Shown: positions 6,001-15,000 of the stretch, piece by piece
How positions within the stretch are numbered: the stretch's first letter is position 1
Layout: the number at the start of each line of letters is the position of its first letter
NCBI GenBank assembly: GCA_037443265.1
Contig: JBBIOR010000001.1
Span: 48,940 to 69,428, forward strand
Length of the DNA: 20,489 nucleotides
Direction: 5' to 3'
Source of the DNA: Candidatus Fraserbacteria bacterium
GTDB lineage: Bacteria; Bipolaricaulota; Bipolaricaulia; RBG-16-55-9
Made by a program: the position numbers

Positions 6001-9000
6001 GGGTGACGAAGTCCTCAGGCAGAGCCATCTTGGCAGAGCTCAGCAGGCGCACCTGGAGCGGCGCTGGGGGAGAGAAGTTTCTTATCGCCAAAAAGCTCAC
6101 GAACCCCATCACAGCCAGCGCGGCTATCACGATCAAACGCTTGCGCCTCATGGCCTCACCGGACCGGCACGATCTTCGTCAGTGAATTCTGTAAACCGTC
6201 ATTATCGGTGACAACCAACTTAACGGGGAAGTCACCCGCCGTCAAGAAGACGCGAGTGACGACCTTGCCGGTGGCATCGATGGCGCCGTCGTTGTTGAAG
6301 TCCCACTCGTATTGGACAATCTGGCCGTCAGGGTCGAAGGAGGGCGAGGCATCGAAAGTGACGATCTCGCCGGACTTGGGACGCTGAGGTATGAAGATAA
6401 AGTCGGCCACGGGCGCAAACTTGATGGGCCGGGGCCTCTCCGCCGCGCCGAAGTTTATCCTAATGATCTCTTCCGGCTTAAGAGCGATAGAGACTTCCCG
6501 CGGAGTGGTCAGCTCAAACCCTTTAGGCAGCGTGGTGAGGTCTAGCGCGAGCTGATACTCCCCCGGCGGCACGCGGAAGAGAAAGGCCCCGTCGGGGCCG
6601 GTGATAAATTGCGTGCTCTGGCGCCCGCTCAGGACGATTCGGACGTTGCCGATGCCGCCCTCGCCCGGTTCCCGAATGCCGTTGCGGTTGGCATCATGGA
6701 AGACCGCACCCGTGATGGCGCTGACTCTTCGTAGGGGGACCTCCACGAAAGTCACGCGGCCCGCTTGCACTGTGACCGGAAGGGGCAGCTGGATCTTAGA
6801 CTCTAAAAAGGCGGGCAACTCGGGCATATTTAGCGAAAAGCTCCCCGGCTTGATGGGGGGGAGTCGAAAGCGCCCTTGGGGATTGCTGAGCGCTTGGCCT
6901 TCGTCAAGCGTTACAATCAGATCGGGTACGCCTTCTTCTCCAGGATCGAAGCGCTGGTTATCGTTCTTATCGATGAAGACGACCCCCTCCACTCGGCCTC
7001 GGACCGGAACGGCTTCCACTTGAATCGTAAAGGGCAGGTTGAACGTAAGCGTCGTGCTCAGGCCGATGCCGGAGTCCGCAAAGCTCGCTTCAAGAACAGC
7101 CAGTGAGAGGGAGGTCAGACCGAAGGTGAAGGTGATCCCGCTGGTTTCGGTGCTCCCCGCGCGGCTTCGAAAGAAGCTTGCGGTCAAGAAGGCCCCTTCC
7201 CTGGGGCGCAGGGTCAGCGCCACTGACTGCCTGAGGGTGTCGCTTTGGGTCAGGGCAATATTATCACGCTCTTGCGTTTGCGCATTCGAGAAGGTCAATG
7301 AAAGCATGTTGAGGGAAACGTGGACGTTGAGCGATAGCCCAAACGTCAACTGATCTGTCGGGAACAACGTATCCCCCAGGCGGTGCTCGAGCCTCAAAGT
7401 GGTGTCAAAGCTGAACGGCTCTAGGGACGTGAGCAGACTGGCTTGCCACTGGTTGATGAAGATCCCCGGCAAGGCAGGATCCCCAACAATATTGGTCTGT
7501 GTGAGGCTCCAGAGAAAGCCGGAGGAGAGCTCTAGGGGTCTTAGGGAGAGTGGGAGGCTGAGGGCGCTCGTGAACGAGAGGCAATTTCCGAATTTGGCCC
7601 CTGCTCGACTGAAATCAAAACTCAGCAGCGGAGGGGCAGGGTTCAGTAAGAGGCTCACTCGAAAGGCGCTATCGCTAAAATTAGTCTCGAGGGCCCCGGC
7701 CCCCTCCAAAATCAAGCTGGCCGGTATTTTTAGCGGTAGCTCCCAAGGCATAGCGACATCGAAGATGGACAGATTTTGAACGTCATCTCTGAGTGCTAAT
7801 AGACCCACTCCGCCCCTTTTAGCTCGGAAGGCCGCTTGAATGGCACGCTGCAAGCCGTCTTGGGAGGAAAAGAGGCCCAAGCTCACCAGAGGATGCAACA
7901 ACAAGAGGGTCCTATGGACTGGGGGGCTGACGAGGCGGACCGGCGGGAAGTCCGGGGCACTCCCTGTGCTCAAGCTGAGGGAGAAAGCGCCGATGGAAAA
8001 CGCGGGCAGAAGGCCCACAGGGATCGTACTCGAAAGCAGTATGTCGCCCGGCAGCTCCCCCGTGATAAACAGCTTGGAAGTGAGTGAGTCCAGAATGGGA
8101 GGATTGAGCGGTTCTATAGTACTAAACAGACTAAAGAGGGCGGGCAACTCCAGGCCCAGAAAGGTGGGAACCTGCTCGAAGGGCAACGGCAGGATCGTCG
8201 TCAACACCCGCGCCTCCGCGAAGACCCCGGGCATCGCCGTGGAGGTTGCCCGAAAGAGCAAGGTATCGCGACCGGCCCTGGCGGCCGCAGGAATTCTCAA
8301 GGTCACTCGGACTTCAGCGCGCTCCCCAGGCACTAGCTGCACCCGCTCCGGCACCACCGTCGCTAGAAAGTTACTACTAGAACGCGCGCTGAGCTCGAAG
8401 ATATCTAACACGTTCCCGCGGTTGATCACGATGAAGAGGTACATCACAGTGTCATCAGGCTTGGCTTGCTGGCCTGGCGGGGGCTGGATCACGATGCCAG
8501 CTGCGGGTAACACCTCAACGATGGCTACTCCAGCGGCCTGGACGGTCGGATCGGTCCGAGAAGTCGCTTGCAATTTGATCTCATGCGGGCCCGCCTGGAC
8601 CGTAGGCGACACAGAGATGGTGACAAAGACGCTCTCCTGAGCCCCGACTCCAAGCGTGACCACAGGCGGCGCAATCCCGATGAGCTGAAACCCCTCAGGC
8701 AGAAGGGCGCGAAGATCGTAGCTGTCTGGAACCGTTCCGCGATTAATTACGGTGAAGACGAGGGTGACGAAGTCCCCGGGGCTGGCTGTCTTCGGCGACG
8801 GAGGGATGACCTGCCCCCCAAGTTGCGGCTGGGCCGCTGCACTTACAGCGAGAAGAAGAGCCGTAAGGAAGCCCAAAACGACCCAAAAGCGCAAGCAAGC
8901 CCCCTTATCCTAGATCTTAGGCGGGGCTTTTAGGGGGCACAGTAATCCAGATCACCCTCTAAAAGAAGGGGGCCTTGACAATGCGCCCTTTTTACGCTAA

Positions 9001-12000: not shown

Positions 12001-15000
12001 TGGGCGGATCACGAGCACGCAGGTCTTATTGCCCGAAGAAGACAAGCCGCTGAGAGTGATCATCGACTATGAGAATATCGGCACGACCTTCCAGCAGCCC
12101 AAAGGCGAGGTGCGCTTCATCAACTCCCGGGGAGAGGTGGTGGCGAGAGTCGAAATCCCACCCTTTCCGATCTTACCCGGGGGCCAGCGCCGGTTGGAGA
12201 TTCGGTTAGACCAGAAGCTCCCTTCTGGGGACTACGTCGCCGTGGCGATCCTCGATTTCGGAGGCGACTTTCTGCTGGGAGCTCAGACGCGCTTCAAGAT
12301 CCCTTAACTGCCATGGGATACCCCCACCCCCACCTTCGGACACAGCGCCTGCACCACACACTGTGTGCACTTGGGCTTTTTAGGCACACAGACCGCCCGC
12401 CCGTGATCCTTCATCAGCCACGGGAGACGCGGCCACTCGCTCTTTGAAATTAAAGCCATAAGATCGCGCTCGATCTTCTCCGGGTCTCTTTCTCTCGTAA
12501 GCCCCATGCGCTGACTCAGACGAATCACGTGCGTGTCCACCACAATGCCCTCGACTCTGCCAAACGCATGGCTGAGAATGGCATTGGCCGTCTTGCGCCC
12601 GATGCCCGGCAGCTTCACGAGCCCTTGCAGGGTGTCAGGCACTCGGCCGCCGTATTCTTCAACTAGAATCTTGCAAGCACTCTGAATCGCTTTGGCCTTA
12701 TTACGATAGAAATTGACGCGCTGGATGTCGCTCTCTAGCTGCTCTAGAGGCGCGTTCGCATAGTCTGAGGCCGTCTGGTATTTCCCAAACAGCTCGGCCG
12801 TCACAGCATTGACCAGCTCATCGCGCGCCTGAGCTGAGAGGATCGCCGCCACTAAAAGCTCCAGGGGATTGCTGAAGTTCAAATAATACTTGGCATGAGG
12901 ATAAGCCACCTTGAGTCTTTGCAGGATGGCAGAAGCTCTTTCTTTCTCCGTCACGCACAATCATCTCCCAAGAATATGGACACAGCCTACAGAGCCAGTC
13001 GCAAAGCGGCCAATCCCAATGTTATGCTGGAGCGCGATCTCGGCGCTTTTCACTTGGACCGGCCCGGCCTCGCCGCGCAGTTGCTCATAGAGCTCCACAA
13101 TTTGAGCCACGCCCGTGGCCCCCAACGGATGCCCTTTGGCCAATAAGCCCCCGCTGGGGTTGACGGGCCTTTCGCCCTCCAGATGAACGCGACACTCTTC
13201 TAGCAGCTTGACCCCCTCCCCGGGCCGGGCGAATCCCAAATCTTCATAGCTTATAAGCTCTGTGATACTGAAACAATCATGAATCTCCGCGACGTCAATA
13301 TCTTCAGGTCCCACGCCTGCCATCTCGTAGGCCTGATGGGCCGCCCGCTGAGTAGCCGGAAAACTCGTGAGATCCCCACCCCGCACGAAGCTGTCCATCG
13401 AGAGCCCTGAGCCCAACACATACACGGGATCGTCCGTGTAGCGCCGAGCGATCTGGGCATGGCACACAATCACGGCTGCCGCCCCGTCCGTGATGGGACA
13501 ACAATCATACAGCCCCAACGGATACGAGACATAAGGGGCTTTCAGCACGTCTTCCAGGCTGCACTCGAATCTGAGATGCGCATGGGGATAGAGCGAGCCG
13601 TTGTGATGATTCTTCACGCTCACCAGCGCGACTCCCTCGCGCGTGACCTCGTATTTGTGCATATAGGAGGTAGCTCTAAGCCCGAAGAAGGCCGGCATCG
13701 TCACCCCGCGCCCCAGCCAGAGCCTCTTTAGATCCGCTCTCTGGATGAGCCCTCCCGGCTCATCATGCATCTTCTCTGCGCCCACCACCAGCGCAACGTC
13801 ATAGACACCCGAGGCCACGGCCAGACACGCCTGACGAAAGGCATCGCTCCCCGTCGCACAGGCGTTCTCCACCCGCGTGACGGGAATATCAAACAATCCC
13901 GTGGCATGAGAGAGCACTAGGCCAGAGTTGCCCATGACGGGATAGACCGTCCCAAACCAAGCCGCTTCGATCTCCTTGGGGTCGAGCCCTTTGTCGACGC
14001 TCGCCAGCGCTTTTAAATAGGCCTGCTCGATCATGTCTTCTAAGCTGAGCGAAAAATGTTCGCCGAAGTCGATCAGGCCCGCGCCCACGACCGCCACCTT
14101 CTTGCGAAGCGCTTCGCTCATGGCCCACCCTTCCGCGGCTTAAATTTATAAGAATAGACTCTTAGCCCGCTCTCTTCTTCGTACATCACGCAGAGATCGG
14201 CCTCGACCTCCAGGCCCACTCTCACGTCTTCGGGCCTGCACTCGATGATCTCCCCATAGACCCGCGCGCCGTCTTCAAATTCCACAACCGCCATAGGCAG
14301 CGGCGTCTGAAAACCTTCGGGCAGACGATGCTGAATCACAAAAGAAATGATCTTCCCATAGGGCTTCATCTGAAACTCTTCAAATTCCACCGGAGCTTTT
14401 CCGCAGCGCTTGCAGACGCTCTTCTTCTCGGGGAAGGAGACCCACCCGCAGCTTTGGCATCTATAAGCCACAAGCTGGGCGTTCTCTTTGGCGATGCGCC
14501 AGCTGAGCGGACTCGTCATCACTCTCCTCCTAAAAGCCCTACAGAGCGCAGATACGTTGCATAGCTTATATATTCTTTCTGAGCCAGCTGTGCTTCCACG
14601 GTCGGAAGGCCTTTCGCAAGGGTGATGGGCCTCTCAACGCGCAGGGCCAGCGCGTCGCTCCCGCCCGGCCCATAGGAGATCGCCAGAATGCGCTGTCCCT
14701 CCTGCACCCTCTCCAGAGCCAGCGCTAGATCTACCAGAAAAGAAGCGCATCCGACGAAGCCTAGCTGGGGAAAAGTCGAGACGAGCTTCTTCGCCGCAAT
14801 CTGGAGCCTCTCCAGCGCGCGCGTCCCCCAACGAAACTCCGGAGGGTGCAGCACAACGCGCTCGAACTCTTCCAGTGTGGTGCCCATCACATTCCGGAGT
14901 TGCTCTCCCGCGCCCTGCACGTGCTTAAGAAAGCCCTGCTGCATCACGAAGCGCTCGTCAATAGAGCCATGAAACCTTCCCTCAGCGCGAGAACGTCCAA

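What a model noticed while it worked through the whole genome (the two positions that open the first line are those of the whole stretch)
6156..12307. Riboswitch-controlled chaperone-pilin fibre locus of WxL/chaperone-usher type, invisible to Pfam, in a Bipolaricaulota g [...]
Two c-di-GMP-I-class aptamers (C1:57958-58051 and 58655-58752) precede two paralogous secreted proteins of about 175 aa (r0058, r0059). These are followed by a 320-aa protein and a 276-aa two-domain protein (60416-61246). The 276-aa protein is a remote relative of the WxL-interacting chaperone (WxLIP, DUF916) and resembles PapD-type chaperones. A conserved 912-aa partner (55095-57833) lies alongside. The chaperone is predicted to bind the subunit by parallel strand complementation. 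The module is conserved across the order. This places a WxL-like donor-strand system outside Bacillota.
Evidence so far: - Rfam finds both aptamers. - Pfam finds nothing for the four proteins even at E<=1. - Chaperone model: pLDDT 84.5. Foldseek: WxLIP 9i25_C at E 6.7e-13 with TM 0.53/0.57, then CfaA at 2.5e-8, FimC and CsuC. - A profile search gives 7,265 relatives. Of the best 149, 39 match PF06030. - Complex: ipSAE 0.78 against a best control of 0.02. The mark was reached by 116 of 157 solved complexes and 2 of 215 mismatches. Contacts agree in >=83% of cases and the partner's pLDDT is >=81. Chaperone residues 148-163 run parallel to subunit residues 168-175. - The chaperone occurs in 32 of 35 genomes of the order. 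- The 912-aa homologue is adjacent in 27 of 29 loci of relatives.
(Added by a program. Inside this text positions count along the whole contig: contig position 48,940 is position 1 of the stretch shown here. "Call 12" and the like, gene names such as g00115 and contig names such as C1 are that model's own, and its searches are not shown. The text may have been shortened before it was handed on; [...] marks where a part breaks off. The agent that wrote the report below was given it as the finding of a first reader that could run no searches.)

Follow-up and report, generated by a model that had tools for sequence, protein, structure and literature searches.

The report
Riboswitch-controlled chaperone-type fibre gene cluster
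A deep-branching, outer-membrane-bearing bacterium carries a signal-controlled gene cluster that looks like a third version of the chaperone-assisted machines that build hair-like surface fibres, but this rests on computer predictions and no fibre has been shown.

Summary
The sequence features are real. Two c-di-GMP-I-class aptamers precede two paralogous secreted proteins of about 170-180 aa. A 320-aa protein and a 276-aa two-domain protein follow, and a 912-aa gene lies alongside.

My own model of the 276-aa protein (pLDDT 88) matches the enterococcal WxL chaperone WxLIP best, over both domains (Z 15-16). The next two-domain matches are chaperone-usher chaperones (Z 10-12).

I add three points.
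- The genome has BamA, so the cell has an outer membrane.
- The 912-aa protein carries a porin-like outer-membrane barrel between Ig-like domains. It lies directly downstream of the chaperone in 16 of 20 relatives' loci.
- The chaperone is a paralogue of the tandem Ig domains of the 912-aa and 246-aa proteins.

The locus therefore resembles a chaperone-plus-outer-membrane-platform system more than a Gram-positive WxL system. It has no WxL domain, no chaperone membrane anchor, no sortase and no usher family match.

The subunit fold and donor-strand exchange remain untested. Riboswitch control is recurrent (6 of 20 loci) but not universal.

Verdict: a new variant of a known kind, about 50% likely to be a true donor-strand fibre system.

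The parts
5411..6151 (-). 246-aa protein: N-terminal hydrophobic helix, then two NEW3-type Ig-like domains. It is a paralogue of the chaperone and lies directly after the 912-aa gene.
   Evidence: Pfam NPCBM_assoc E 9.2e-18 and FixG_C 3.3e-8. hhalign against the chaperone family gives probability 87%, E 4e-6, over about 200 columns. An orthologue follows the 912-aa gene in 5 of 5 loci of genus g9 where I fetched the downstream DNA, and in neither of the 2 other readable loci (L058, L061).
6156..8894 (-). 912-aa protein: signal peptide, two Ig-like domains (about residues 27-234), a porin-like beta-barrel (about 245-625), two SdrD_B domains and one PKD domain. Candidate outer-membrane platform or anchor.
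   Evidence: Pfam PKD_4 6.4e-18, SdrD_B 1.1e-12, Ig_VWA7 2e-8. AF2 model pLDDT 71.2, with residues 277-454 under 50. VIA-align places residues about 245-624 on 16-18-stranded porins at Z 13.4-15.2, 220-251 residues aligned. The N-terminal tandem is homologous to the chaperone: hhalign probability 93%, E 3.2e-7.
9019..9112 (+). Aptamer 1, c-di-GMP-I clan. The start codon of subunit A follows at the very next base.
   Evidence: RF03167 76.7 bits. It also scores 81.1 bits on RF01051. The ATG lies at +1 after the aptamer's end, as in relative locus L044.
9113..9616 (+). Subunit A, 167 aa, secreted small protein.
   Evidence: 50% identical to subunit B and aligned end to end in A2. No Pfam or NCBIfam match.
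9679..9707 (+). Promoter-like site in front of aptamer 2.
   Evidence: TTGACA, 17 nt, TAAAGT; 10 of 12 matches with a TG extension. This is a consensus match only.
9716..9813 (+). Aptamer 2, c-di-GMP-I.
   Evidence: RF01051 56.6 bits against a gathering score of 35.
9808..9845 (+). Terminator-like hairpin plus U-run. It shares the CGGAG of the aptamer's closing stem and is the likely expression platform.
   Evidence: 12-pair stem followed by TCAATTTTTC. It forms in the minimum-energy fold, -21.1 kcal/mol on its own.
9880..10425 (+). Subunit B, 181 aa, secreted small protein.
   Evidence: 112 homologues. Family alignment A2 shows four conserved Cys and an invariant C-terminal end. Only 16 clusters match at E<=0.001 among 1.84 billion representatives.
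10484..11446 (+). 320-aa two-part protein. The C-terminal half (about residues 188-315) is subunit-like. The N-terminal half is an extra domain. Candidate tip or adaptor subunit.
   Evidence: In other families the C-terminal half stands alone as a 152-164-aa secreted protein. hhalign against the subunit family is colinear to the C-terminus but weak: probability 11.5%, E 0.0026.
11477..12307 (+). 276-aa two-domain chaperone-like protein, with a signal peptide and no membrane anchor.
   Evidence: Model pLDDT 88.4. WxLIP Z 16.0 with 230 aligned; CU chaperones Z 10.2-12.0 over both domains. PDB profile search: EfmWxLIP1 on top at E 0.0022. PF06030's only match in the genome is this gene, at E 0.15.

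Best explanation
The locus encodes a fibre or adhesin assembly module that responds to a cyclic dinucleotide, in a bacterium with an outer membrane.

Proposed mechanism:
- The small secreted proteins (two here, three or four in relatives) are the fibre subunits.
- The 320-aa protein is a subunit-like domain carrying an extra N-terminal domain. It would act as a tip or adaptor.
- The 276-aa protein is a soluble periplasmic chaperone of the PapD/WxLIP fold. It would hold each subunit by lending it a beta-strand. This is the long alternating-hydrophobic strand at about residues 150-164, after a flexible loop.
- The 912-aa protein sits in the outer membrane through a porin-like barrel. It would take subunits from the chaperone through its own chaperone-like N-terminal Ig pair, then export or anchor the fibre.
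- The 246-aa paralogue is a further accessory protein, probably membrane-anchored.
- c-di-GMP-class riboswitches set subunit supply. Aptamer 2 most likely switches transcription ON by preventing a terminator. Aptamer 1 acts on translation, with unknown polarity.

Shown here: the RNA motifs, the gene order, the folds of the chaperone and the barrel, the paralogy of the three Ig-pair proteins, and conservation.

Inferred: strand donation, polymerisation, export, ligand and polarity.
For: Chaperone:
- An exhaustive structure search over 48,161 chains puts WxLIP first: Z 15.0, 229 residues aligned over both domains.
- The only other two-domain matches with rmsd up to 5.5 A are pilus chaperones: YadV 11.5, FimC 11.2, SafB 11.2, CupB2 11.0, CfaA 10.8, CsuC 10.5, EcpB 10.2.
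- A sequence profile of the family hits EfmWxLIP1 first in the PDB, at E 0.0022.
- 18 of 38 family members give sub-threshold PF06030 matches, best 1.2e-4, and 2 give PapD_N.
- PF06030's single match in the whole genome is this gene.
- The model has a low-confidence loop (residues 135-156) followed by a long strand (157-167). The alternating hydrophobic pattern of that stretch is kept across the family.

Gene order:
- Subunits, then the 320-aa gene, then the chaperone, then the 912-aa gene, all on one strand, in L031-L038.
- The chaperone is followed by the 912-aa gene in 16 of 20 loci.

Subunits:
- They occur as tandem paralogues.
- They share a signal peptide, an N-terminal alternating strand and a C-terminal alternating strand that ends 2-5 residues before the C-terminus, across all families.
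- The nearest named protein-language-model clusters are WxL (0.94-0.95; 182-186 shared features) and SCPU (0.92-0.93). Both are donor-strand pilin families. This is a lead only.

Envelope:
- Omp85/BamA scores 77.6 bits, over its cut-off.
- The barrel of the 912-aa protein scores Z 13.4-15.2 against porins.

Regulation:
- Aptamers.
- A terminator that overlaps the closing stem of aptamer 2.
- Aptamers precede subunit-like genes in 6 of 20 relatives' loci.
- The genome has two GGDEF genes.
Against: - The subunit fold was not modelled here.
- No sequence method links the subunits to any pilin family. PDB profile searches gave 0 or irrelevant hits. Pfam found no WxL or SCPU in 50 plus 21 proteins. 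The genome search found neither family at E<=10.
- The chaperone is homologous to ordinary NEW3-type tandem Ig domains, so it may be just another surface Ig protein.
- A paralogue class carries a dockerin-like tail. That suggests an extracellular, structural role.
- The barrel is porin-sized (matches are 16-18-stranded), not the 24 strands of ushers. Half of it is modelled under pLDDT 50.
- Ushers appear only with TM about 0.2 in Foldseek and are not among the 50 best VIA rows. PF00577 has no match.
- The 8 loci of genus g9 lack riboswitches.
Confidence: 0.5

Rival explanations
1. A c-di-GMP-controlled set of unrelated surface or matrix proteins with no strand exchange. The 276-aa, 246-aa and 912-aa proteins are NEW3-type Ig-domain envelope proteins, and the 912-aa one is an outer-membrane-anchored adhesin. 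The small proteins are secreted matrix or lectin-like proteins that fold on their own. The likeness to chaperones reflects the common tandem Ig fold.
For: - hhalign ties the chaperone to the tandem Ig domains of the 912-aa protein (probability 93%) and the 246-aa protein (87%).
- Family members hit FixG_C (16 of 38), fn3_5 (20 of 38) and NPCBM_assoc (3 of 38) about as often as PF06030.
- Dockerin-tailed paralogues lack an adjacent full 912-aa gene.
- The other riboswitches in this genome also precede surface proteins: a Big_9/cadherin adhesin and a 498-aa secreted protein.
- The subunits show no detectable kinship to pilins.
Against: - In an exhaustive search, the matches that cover both domains with low rmsd are WxLIP and the pilus chaperones only. 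Other tandem-Ig proteins (CEP192, Vpr, HYDIN) align with rmsd 11-13 A.
- The family has a long loop plus an alternating-hydrophobic strand that the NEW3 paralogues lack.
- The fixed order of subunits, chaperone and barrel protein across five families of the order is typical of assembly operons.
Confidence: 0.3
2. A true member of the Gram-positive WxL (Elr-type) pilus family that has diverged beyond recognition. It would work at the cytoplasmic membrane as in enterococci, and the 912-aa protein would be unrelated to assembly.
For: WxLIP is the best structural and sequence match of the chaperone. The nearest named language-model cluster of the subunit is WxL.
Against: - No WxL match.
- No WxLIP_HBD match in this gene.
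- No C-terminal helix, whereas 96.7% of WxL chaperones have one (preprint 10.64898/2026.10.17.759780, section 13, read).
- No sortase over its cut-off.
- BamA is present.
- The 912-aa gene is tightly linked to the chaperone.
Confidence: 0.07
3. The chaperone-like protein serves the 912-aa protein rather than the small proteins. It would be a periplasmic holdase or adaptor for insertion or display of this large barrel-plus-Ig adhesin. The small proteins would be independent riboswitch-controlled cargo.
For: Chaperone-912 adjacency (16 of 20 loci) is more constant than chaperone-subunit adjacency as detected by sequence. The chaperone and the N-terminus of the 912-aa protein are paralogues.
Against: Subunit-like ORFs, some very diverged, lie upstream of the chaperone in all 16 of those loci.
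Confidence: 0.08

Closest known systems
WxL (Elr) pilus of Enterococcus faecalis with its DUF916/DUF3324 chaperone ElrE/WxLIP (bioRxiv 10.64898/2026.10.17.759780; I read the abstract and sections 7, 8, 12, 13. PDB 9i1y, 9i25)
   Same: A two-domain chaperone fold, the nearest solved structure to the 276-aa protein (Z 15-16). Small secreted subunits encoded beside it, in tandem paralogues. A larger subunit-like protein with an extra domain.
   Different: No WxL domain, no WxLIP_HBD, no C-terminal membrane helix, no LPxTG protein or sortase. The host has an outer membrane. An outer-membrane barrel protein is linked to the chaperone. The preprint reports the WxL system only in Bacillota, with a small Actinomycetota satellite of chaperones.
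Chaperone-usher pili of Pseudomonadota, classical (Fim, Pap, Caf1) and archaic (Csu, CupE)
   Same: A soluble signal-peptide chaperone without an anchor. The order subunit, chaperone, outer-membrane protein. An outer-membrane barrel flanked by Ig-like domains. The chaperone fold matches at Z 10-12 over both domains.
   Different: No PapD_N, Usher or SCPU sequence match. The barrel matches 16-18-stranded porins rather than the 24-stranded usher. The platform's N-terminal domains are paralogues of the chaperone, which is not so in ushers.
c-di-GMP riboswitch control of pilin and adhesin genes (for example type IV pilin pilA1 and surface adhesins of Clostridioides difficile; recalled, not checked in a call)
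   Same: A GEMM-type aptamer directly upstream of a fibre-subunit or adhesin gene. A likely ON switch by anti-termination at aptamer 2.
   Different: A different fibre type. Two separate aptamers for two paralogous subunits. One aptamer abuts the start codon. The sub-class (GGC variant or canonical) is ambiguous and the ligand is untested.
NEW3 / NPCBM-associated tandem Ig-like domains (PF10633, FixG_C-like)
   Same: The 246-aa protein and the N-terminus of the 912-aa protein are clear members. The chaperone is their remote homologue (hhalign probability 87-93%).
   Different: The chaperone has an insertion in domain 1 (about residues 69-93) and a long loop plus strand (about 135-167). Its interdomain geometry matches pilus chaperones.
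TLP-1 environmental donor-strand fibril (CryoSeek, PMC11494351; passages read; PDB 9ikj)
   Same: It is the top PDB sequence hit of the 320-aa family profile, on the start of the subunit-like domain.
   Different: E 0.14, not significant. It is a lead only.

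Membership tests
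WxL (Elr-type) pilus system | Chaperone with the paired Pfam modules PF06030 (WxLIP_PGBD) and PF11797 (WxLIP_HBD) | tested here: not met
   PF06030 matches only below its cut-off. It is absent from the hmmscan of the window protein at E<=1. It scores E 0.15, 12.6 bits, in the genome search. 18 of 38 relatives match at E<=10, best 1.2e-4. PF11797 has no match in this gene.
WxL (Elr-type) pilus system | C-terminal transmembrane helix on the chaperone (96.7% of members, per the preprint) | tested here: not met
   The protein ends in beta-strands (residues 251-260 and 266-275) with no hydrophobic tail. A paralogue class has a dockerin-like tail instead.
WxL (Elr-type) pilus system | WxL-domain pilin (PF13731) within 10 kb of the chaperone | tested here: not met
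   No PF13731 match in the genome at E<=10. None in 50 subunit-family members or in 21 diverged subunit-like proteins. The language-model likeness to a WxL cluster (0.94-0.95) is a lead only.
WxL (Elr-type) pilus system | Sortase-dependent wall anchoring (LPxTG base subunit) | tested here: not met
   No sortase match over its cut-off in G000, which is 88% complete. No LPxTG-type C-terminus on the module's proteins (by eye).
WxL (Elr-type) pilus system | Chaperone three-dimensional fold like WxLIP | tested here: met
   9i25_C Z 16.0, rmsd 6.0, 230 of 251 aligned. 9i1y_A Z 15.0 and first of 48,161 chains. Foldseek E 1.0e-12.
Chaperone-usher pathway | PapD-type periplasmic chaperone (PF00345/PF02753) | tested here: not met
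   No PF00345 match in the genome at E<=10. 2 of 38 relatives match below threshold. The fold does match CU chaperones at Z 10.2-12.0 over both domains.
Chaperone-usher pathway | Usher: 24-stranded outer-membrane barrel with plug, N- and C-terminal domains (PF00577) | tested here: not met
   No PF00577 match. The barrel of the 912-aa protein aligns to 16-18-stranded porins (Z 13.4-15.2). FimD and PapC appear in Foldseek only at TM 0.16-0.20. The strand count is uncertain because residues 277-454 are under pLDDT 50.
Chaperone-usher pathway | Subunits with an incomplete Ig fold and an N-terminal donor strand; polymerisation by donor-strand exchange | tested here: inconclusive
Sequence shows conserved alternating N- and C-terminal strands. 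No SCPU match.
Chaperone-usher pathway | Diderm host with a periplasm; operon order subunit, chaperone, outer-membrane protein | tested here: met
   BamA/Omp85 over its cut-off. The order is seen in 16 of 20 relatives' loci. G000 itself has the 912-aa gene inverted.
c-di-GMP-I riboswitch (Rfam clan CL00126) | Aptamer sequence and structure at the gathering score | tested here: met
   76.7, 56.6 and 66.8 bits. All six aptamers of the genome match both RF01051 and RF03167, so the sub-class is ambiguous.
c-di-GMP-I riboswitch (Rfam clan CL00126) | Ligand binding and a working expression platform | not testable with these tools
   A terminator-like hairpin overlaps the closing stem of aptamer 2. 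The start codon abuts aptamer 1. Binding was not measured.

The most novel reading that the evidence does not exclude
[quoted passage not shown] A soluble WxLIP-like chaperone would hand subunits to a copy of itself that is fused to a porin-sized outer-membrane barrel, a usher analogue of independent build. A third, membrane-anchored copy would assist. Subunit supply would be gated by cyclic-dinucleotide riboswitches. It would mean that strand-donating chaperones arose from ordinary NEW3-type Ig pairs and are older than the split between one- and two-membrane bacteria.
Probability: 0.2. Interest if true: 0.85.

Novelty: new variant of a known kind. Interest (0 to 1): 0.65.

Why it matters
Donor-strand exchange pili were long thought to be confined to Proteobacteria-type chaperone-usher systems. 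A preprint of October 2026 adds a Gram-positive WxL pathway and states that it is confined to Bacillota.

A related chaperone in a candidate phylum with an outer membrane would widen the range of this assembly principle. Here it is near-universal (129 of 151 sampled genomes) and tied to a new kind of outer-membrane partner and to new subunits. It would also give a testable link between the two known pathways.

The locus also offers a compact case of two separate riboswitches that dose two paralogous subunits of one module.

Tried and rejected
- Subunit self-pairing (complex prediction, two copies of mature subunit B with alignment A2) gave no verdict: scores 0.23 and 0.02 against a mark of 0.42, and controls were not run. 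This is neither for nor against binding.
- Profile searches of the PDB gave nothing usable. The subunit family gave 0 hits. The wider subunit superfamily gave only antibody and Lap rows at E>=0.031. The 320-aa family gave TLP-1 at E 0.14. The 912-aa family gave only PKD and SdrD domains.
- The subunit profile searched over 1.84 billion representatives gave 16 hits. Two of them (P0161, P0162) proved to be unrelated Ig or esterase proteins.
- The Atlas structure search was not possible for subunit B or for P0043, because no model is held.
- The search for related loci with alignment A1 returned an error: no stretch was conserved enough.
- Sequencing runs: no RNA holder is listed. The only holder may be the source sample.
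- Papers: 'c-di-GMP-I-GGC' gave 3 papers (listing only). 'Bipolaricaulota' plus 'c-di-GMP' gave 1 review (listing only). PMC7266159 does not mention the GGC variant (passages). I therefore found no stated ligand for the GGC sub-class. I found no paper on this locus in these searches.
- I considered the usher reading of the Foldseek hits to FimD and PapC and set it aside. The TM scores are about 0.2, and VIA-align prefers porins.

Full report
**Anatomy**

The window holds, on the plus strand:
- an aptamer at 9019-9112;
- a small ORF whose ATG at 9113 directly abuts that aptamer (167 aa to 9616);
- a promoter-like site (9679-9707);
- a second aptamer (9716-9813), whose 3' arm is shared with a 12-pair terminator-like hairpin (9808-9835) and a U-run;
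- a second small ORF (9880-10425, 181 aa);
- a 320-aa ORF (10484-11446);
- a 276-aa ORF (11477-12307).

A 912-aa ORF (6156-8894) runs divergently on the minus strand, followed by a 246-aa ORF (5411-6151).

Both aptamers pass Rfam's gathering scores. A third aptamer (18102-18177) precedes a Big_9/cadherin-repeat adhesin.

The genome holds six such aptamers, four of them within 22 kb on this contig, and two GGDEF genes. All six match both RF01051 and RF03167, so the 'GGC' label is not secure. I found no stated ligand for that sub-class.

**What the proteins are by sequence**

Pfam and NCBIfam give nothing over their cut-offs for the two small proteins, the 320-aa protein or the 276-aa protein.

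The 912-aa protein has two Ig-like domains at its N-terminus and two SdrD_B domains plus a PKD domain at its C-terminus. About 390 residues in between are unassigned. The 246-aa protein is two NEW3 domains behind a hydrophobic helix.

The subunit family is tight and narrow:
- 112 close homologues, all unnamed or from Acetothermia/Bipolaricaulota records;
- four conserved cysteines and an invariant C-terminal end;
- only 16 clusters at E<=0.001 among 1.84 billion representatives, two of them spurious.

**The chaperone-like protein**

With a 38-row alignment, AlphaFold2 gives two beta-sandwich domains at pLDDT 88.4.

Three structure searches agree.
- Foldseek puts WxLIP of Enterococcus faecium first (E 1.0e-12), four orders of magnitude ahead of the rest. 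CfaA, CupB2, CsuC, FimC and Caf1M follow.
- VIA-align on Foldseek's list gives WxLIP Z 16.0 with 230 of 251 residues aligned.
- An exhaustive VIA-align search of 48,161 chains, which does not depend on Foldseek, again puts WxLIP first (Z 15.0). The only other matches that cover both domains at rmsd up to 5.5 A are pilus chaperones (Z 10.2-11.5). Other tandem-Ig proteins align at rmsd 11-13 A.

Sequence evidence points the same way.
- The family profile hits EfmWxLIP1 first in the PDB (E 0.0022).
- 18 of 38 members give sub-threshold PF06030 matches.
- PF06030's only match in the genome is this gene (E 0.15).

The protein has a signal peptide (by eye) and ends in beta-strands without a membrane helix.

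A low-confidence loop (residues 135-156) leads into a long strand. The alternating hydrophobic residues of that stretch are kept across the family.

**What weakens the chaperone reading**

hhalign shows that the family is homologous to the tandem Ig pair at the N-terminus of the 912-aa protein (probability 93%, E 3.2e-7) and to the 246-aa protein (87%, E 4e-6). The chaperone therefore belongs to a broad NEW3-like Ig superfamily.

A paralogue class of 343-360 aa carries a dockerin-like tail. Dockerin_1 matches 4 of 38 members, best E 7.9e-5.

**The 912-aa partner and the envelope**

G000 encodes an Omp85/BamA protein over the Pfam cut-off. The same search rings only in the diderm control genomes. 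This cell therefore has an outer membrane.

The full-length model of the 912-aa protein (pLDDT 71.2; residues 277-454 under 50) shows long antiparallel hairpins between residues about 245 and 630. VIA-align places residues about 245-624 on 16-18-stranded porins and on AlgE:
- Z 13.4-15.2 for VhChiP, PorB, Omp32, OmpC, MOMP and OccK, with 220-251 residues aligned;
- Z 11.7 for AlgE.

Foldseek also lists the ushers FimD (E 3.6e-11) and PapC (5.1e-9) over about 900 columns. Their TM scores are only 0.16-0.20, they are not among the best 50 VIA rows, and PF00577 has no match.

The partner is thus an outer-membrane barrel flanked by Ig-like domains. It is like an usher in layout and not an usher by family.

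**Conservation and gene order**

The chaperone is found in 32 of 35 genomes of the order and in 129 of 151 sampled genomes of the phylum. That is 64 of 69 high-quality genomes and 47 of 50 genera.

I fetched 20 loci out of the 47 matches listed. I chose them for contig context and to include both length classes.
- In eight loci of one genus the order is three subunits, the 320-aa gene, the chaperone and the 912-aa gene, all on one strand. The 246-aa gene follows in 5 of 5 of those loci where I fetched the downstream DNA.
- In eight further loci from other families, the chaperone is again followed directly by the 912-aa gene. One copy is cut by a contig end. Across all sixteen loci two copies are split into two ORFs: L031 in the first genus and L040 here. 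Diverged subunit-like ORFs lie upstream (E 2.8e-7 to 0.072 against the small ORF set).
- The four dockerin-class loci lack a full 912-aa gene.

G000 is the exception in having the 912/246 block inverted.

In three families the C-terminal half of the 320-aa protein stands alone as a 152-164-aa secreted protein. It aligns colinearly but weakly with the subunits (hhalign probability 11.5%, E 0.0026). That fits a subunit domain carrying an extra head.

**Regulation**

At aptamer 2, the 5' CUCCG and 3' CGGAG would close the aptamer. The same CGGAG is the start of a -21 kcal/mol hairpin followed by a U-run. Ligand binding should therefore prevent termination, which makes this an inferred ON switch.

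At aptamer 1 the ATG is the next base after the aptamer. The same design recurs in L044. In L046, L047 and L050 a Shine-Dalgarno-like run overlaps the aptamer's 3' end. This points to translational control of unknown polarity.

Aptamers precede subunit-like genes in 6 of 20 relatives' loci. They are absent from all 8 loci of genus g9, and in one of these none appears even at E<=1.

**The subunits remain the weak point**

No sequence method ties them to WxL, SCPU or any solved protein.

A protein-language-model search names a WxL cluster (0.94-0.95; 182-186 shared features) and an SCPU-bearing cluster (0.92-0.93) as the nearest named neighbours. Both are donor-strand pilin families. This is a lead only, and the two calls are not independent.

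My one complex job (two copies of the subunit) gave no verdict.

**Comparison with what is known**

The October 2026 preprint by Sleutel and colleagues shows that WxL proteins form a donor-strand pilus primed by the membrane-anchored DUF916/DUF3324 chaperone ElrE. It reports the system only in Bacillota. It also reports that 96.7% of the chaperones have a C-terminal helix.

The present locus shares the chaperone fold. It fails every other defining feature of that family: WxL domain, WxLIP_HBD, anchor helix and sortase.

It shares the layout of chaperone-usher systems: a soluble chaperone, an outer-membrane partner and the gene order. It shares none of their sequence families.

**Verdict**

The reading as a chaperone-assisted fibre is the best single explanation, at about 0.5. 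It should be described as a new variant that combines a WxLIP-like chaperone with an outer-membrane barrel platform in a diderm, not as a WxL system.

The main rival, at about 0.3, is a set of riboswitch-controlled Ig-domain surface proteins without strand exchange.

Noticed in passing
window 18102-18177 and 18205-20487: A third c-di-GMP-I-clan aptamer (66.8 bits) is followed by a long terminator-like hairpin that ends in a U-run near 18230. After it comes an open-ended adhesin of more than 761 aa with five Big_9/cadherin-like tandem-95 repeats. The listed TTG start at 18205 lies inside the hairpin, so the true start is probably later.
   Followed up: partly
G000 contig C1 45312-45399 (minus strand, 3.5 kb before the window), C3 13678-13762, C22 23896-23980: The genome has six aptamers of this clan. 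Four lie within 22 kb on this contig. The one just outside the window precedes a 498-aa secreted protein. The area looks like a riboswitch-rich island of surface proteins.
   Followed up: partly
L046 8921-9952, L047 8949-9980, L048 8910-9992, L050 2783-3844: A paralogue class of the chaperone-like protein (343-360 aa) carries a C-terminal dockerin-like tail. It lies after a riboswitch-controlled subunit-like gene in L046, L047 and L050. A small ribbon-helix-helix-like ORF sits between them in L046 and L047. In L050 a sigma-factor-like ORF (judged by eye) lies between them.
   Followed up: partly
window 9105-9115; L044 7252-7262; L046 about 7955-7968; L047 about 7950-7963: The start codon abuts or nearly abuts the aptamer's 3' end (UGCCGAAG|AUG). 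The aptamer's last bases encode the first residues of an upstream in-frame reading (GLPKM) in both the window and L044. This is a very compact translational platform.
   Followed up: partly
L031 9208-12121 and L040 9595-12462: The 912-aa homologue is split into two ORFs in these two relatives. This could be a frameshift or an assembly error; I did not resolve it.
   Followed up: no
window 12304-12960 (minus strand): An endonuclease III-like gene (named by eye, not scanned) converges on the chaperone gene and overlaps its stop codon by 4 bases. This marks the 3' end of the module in G000.
   Followed up: no
window 10484-11446, residues about 60-185 of the 320-aa protein: The N-terminal domain of the 320-aa protein has no family match. 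It is conserved in genus g9 and, weakly, in L045. It is a candidate binding head.
   Followed up: no
window 3419-5353 (minus strand): A prolyl-oligopeptidase (S9) family peptidase with a beta-propeller lies next to the 246-aa gene. No link to the module was seen in relatives.
   Followed up: no
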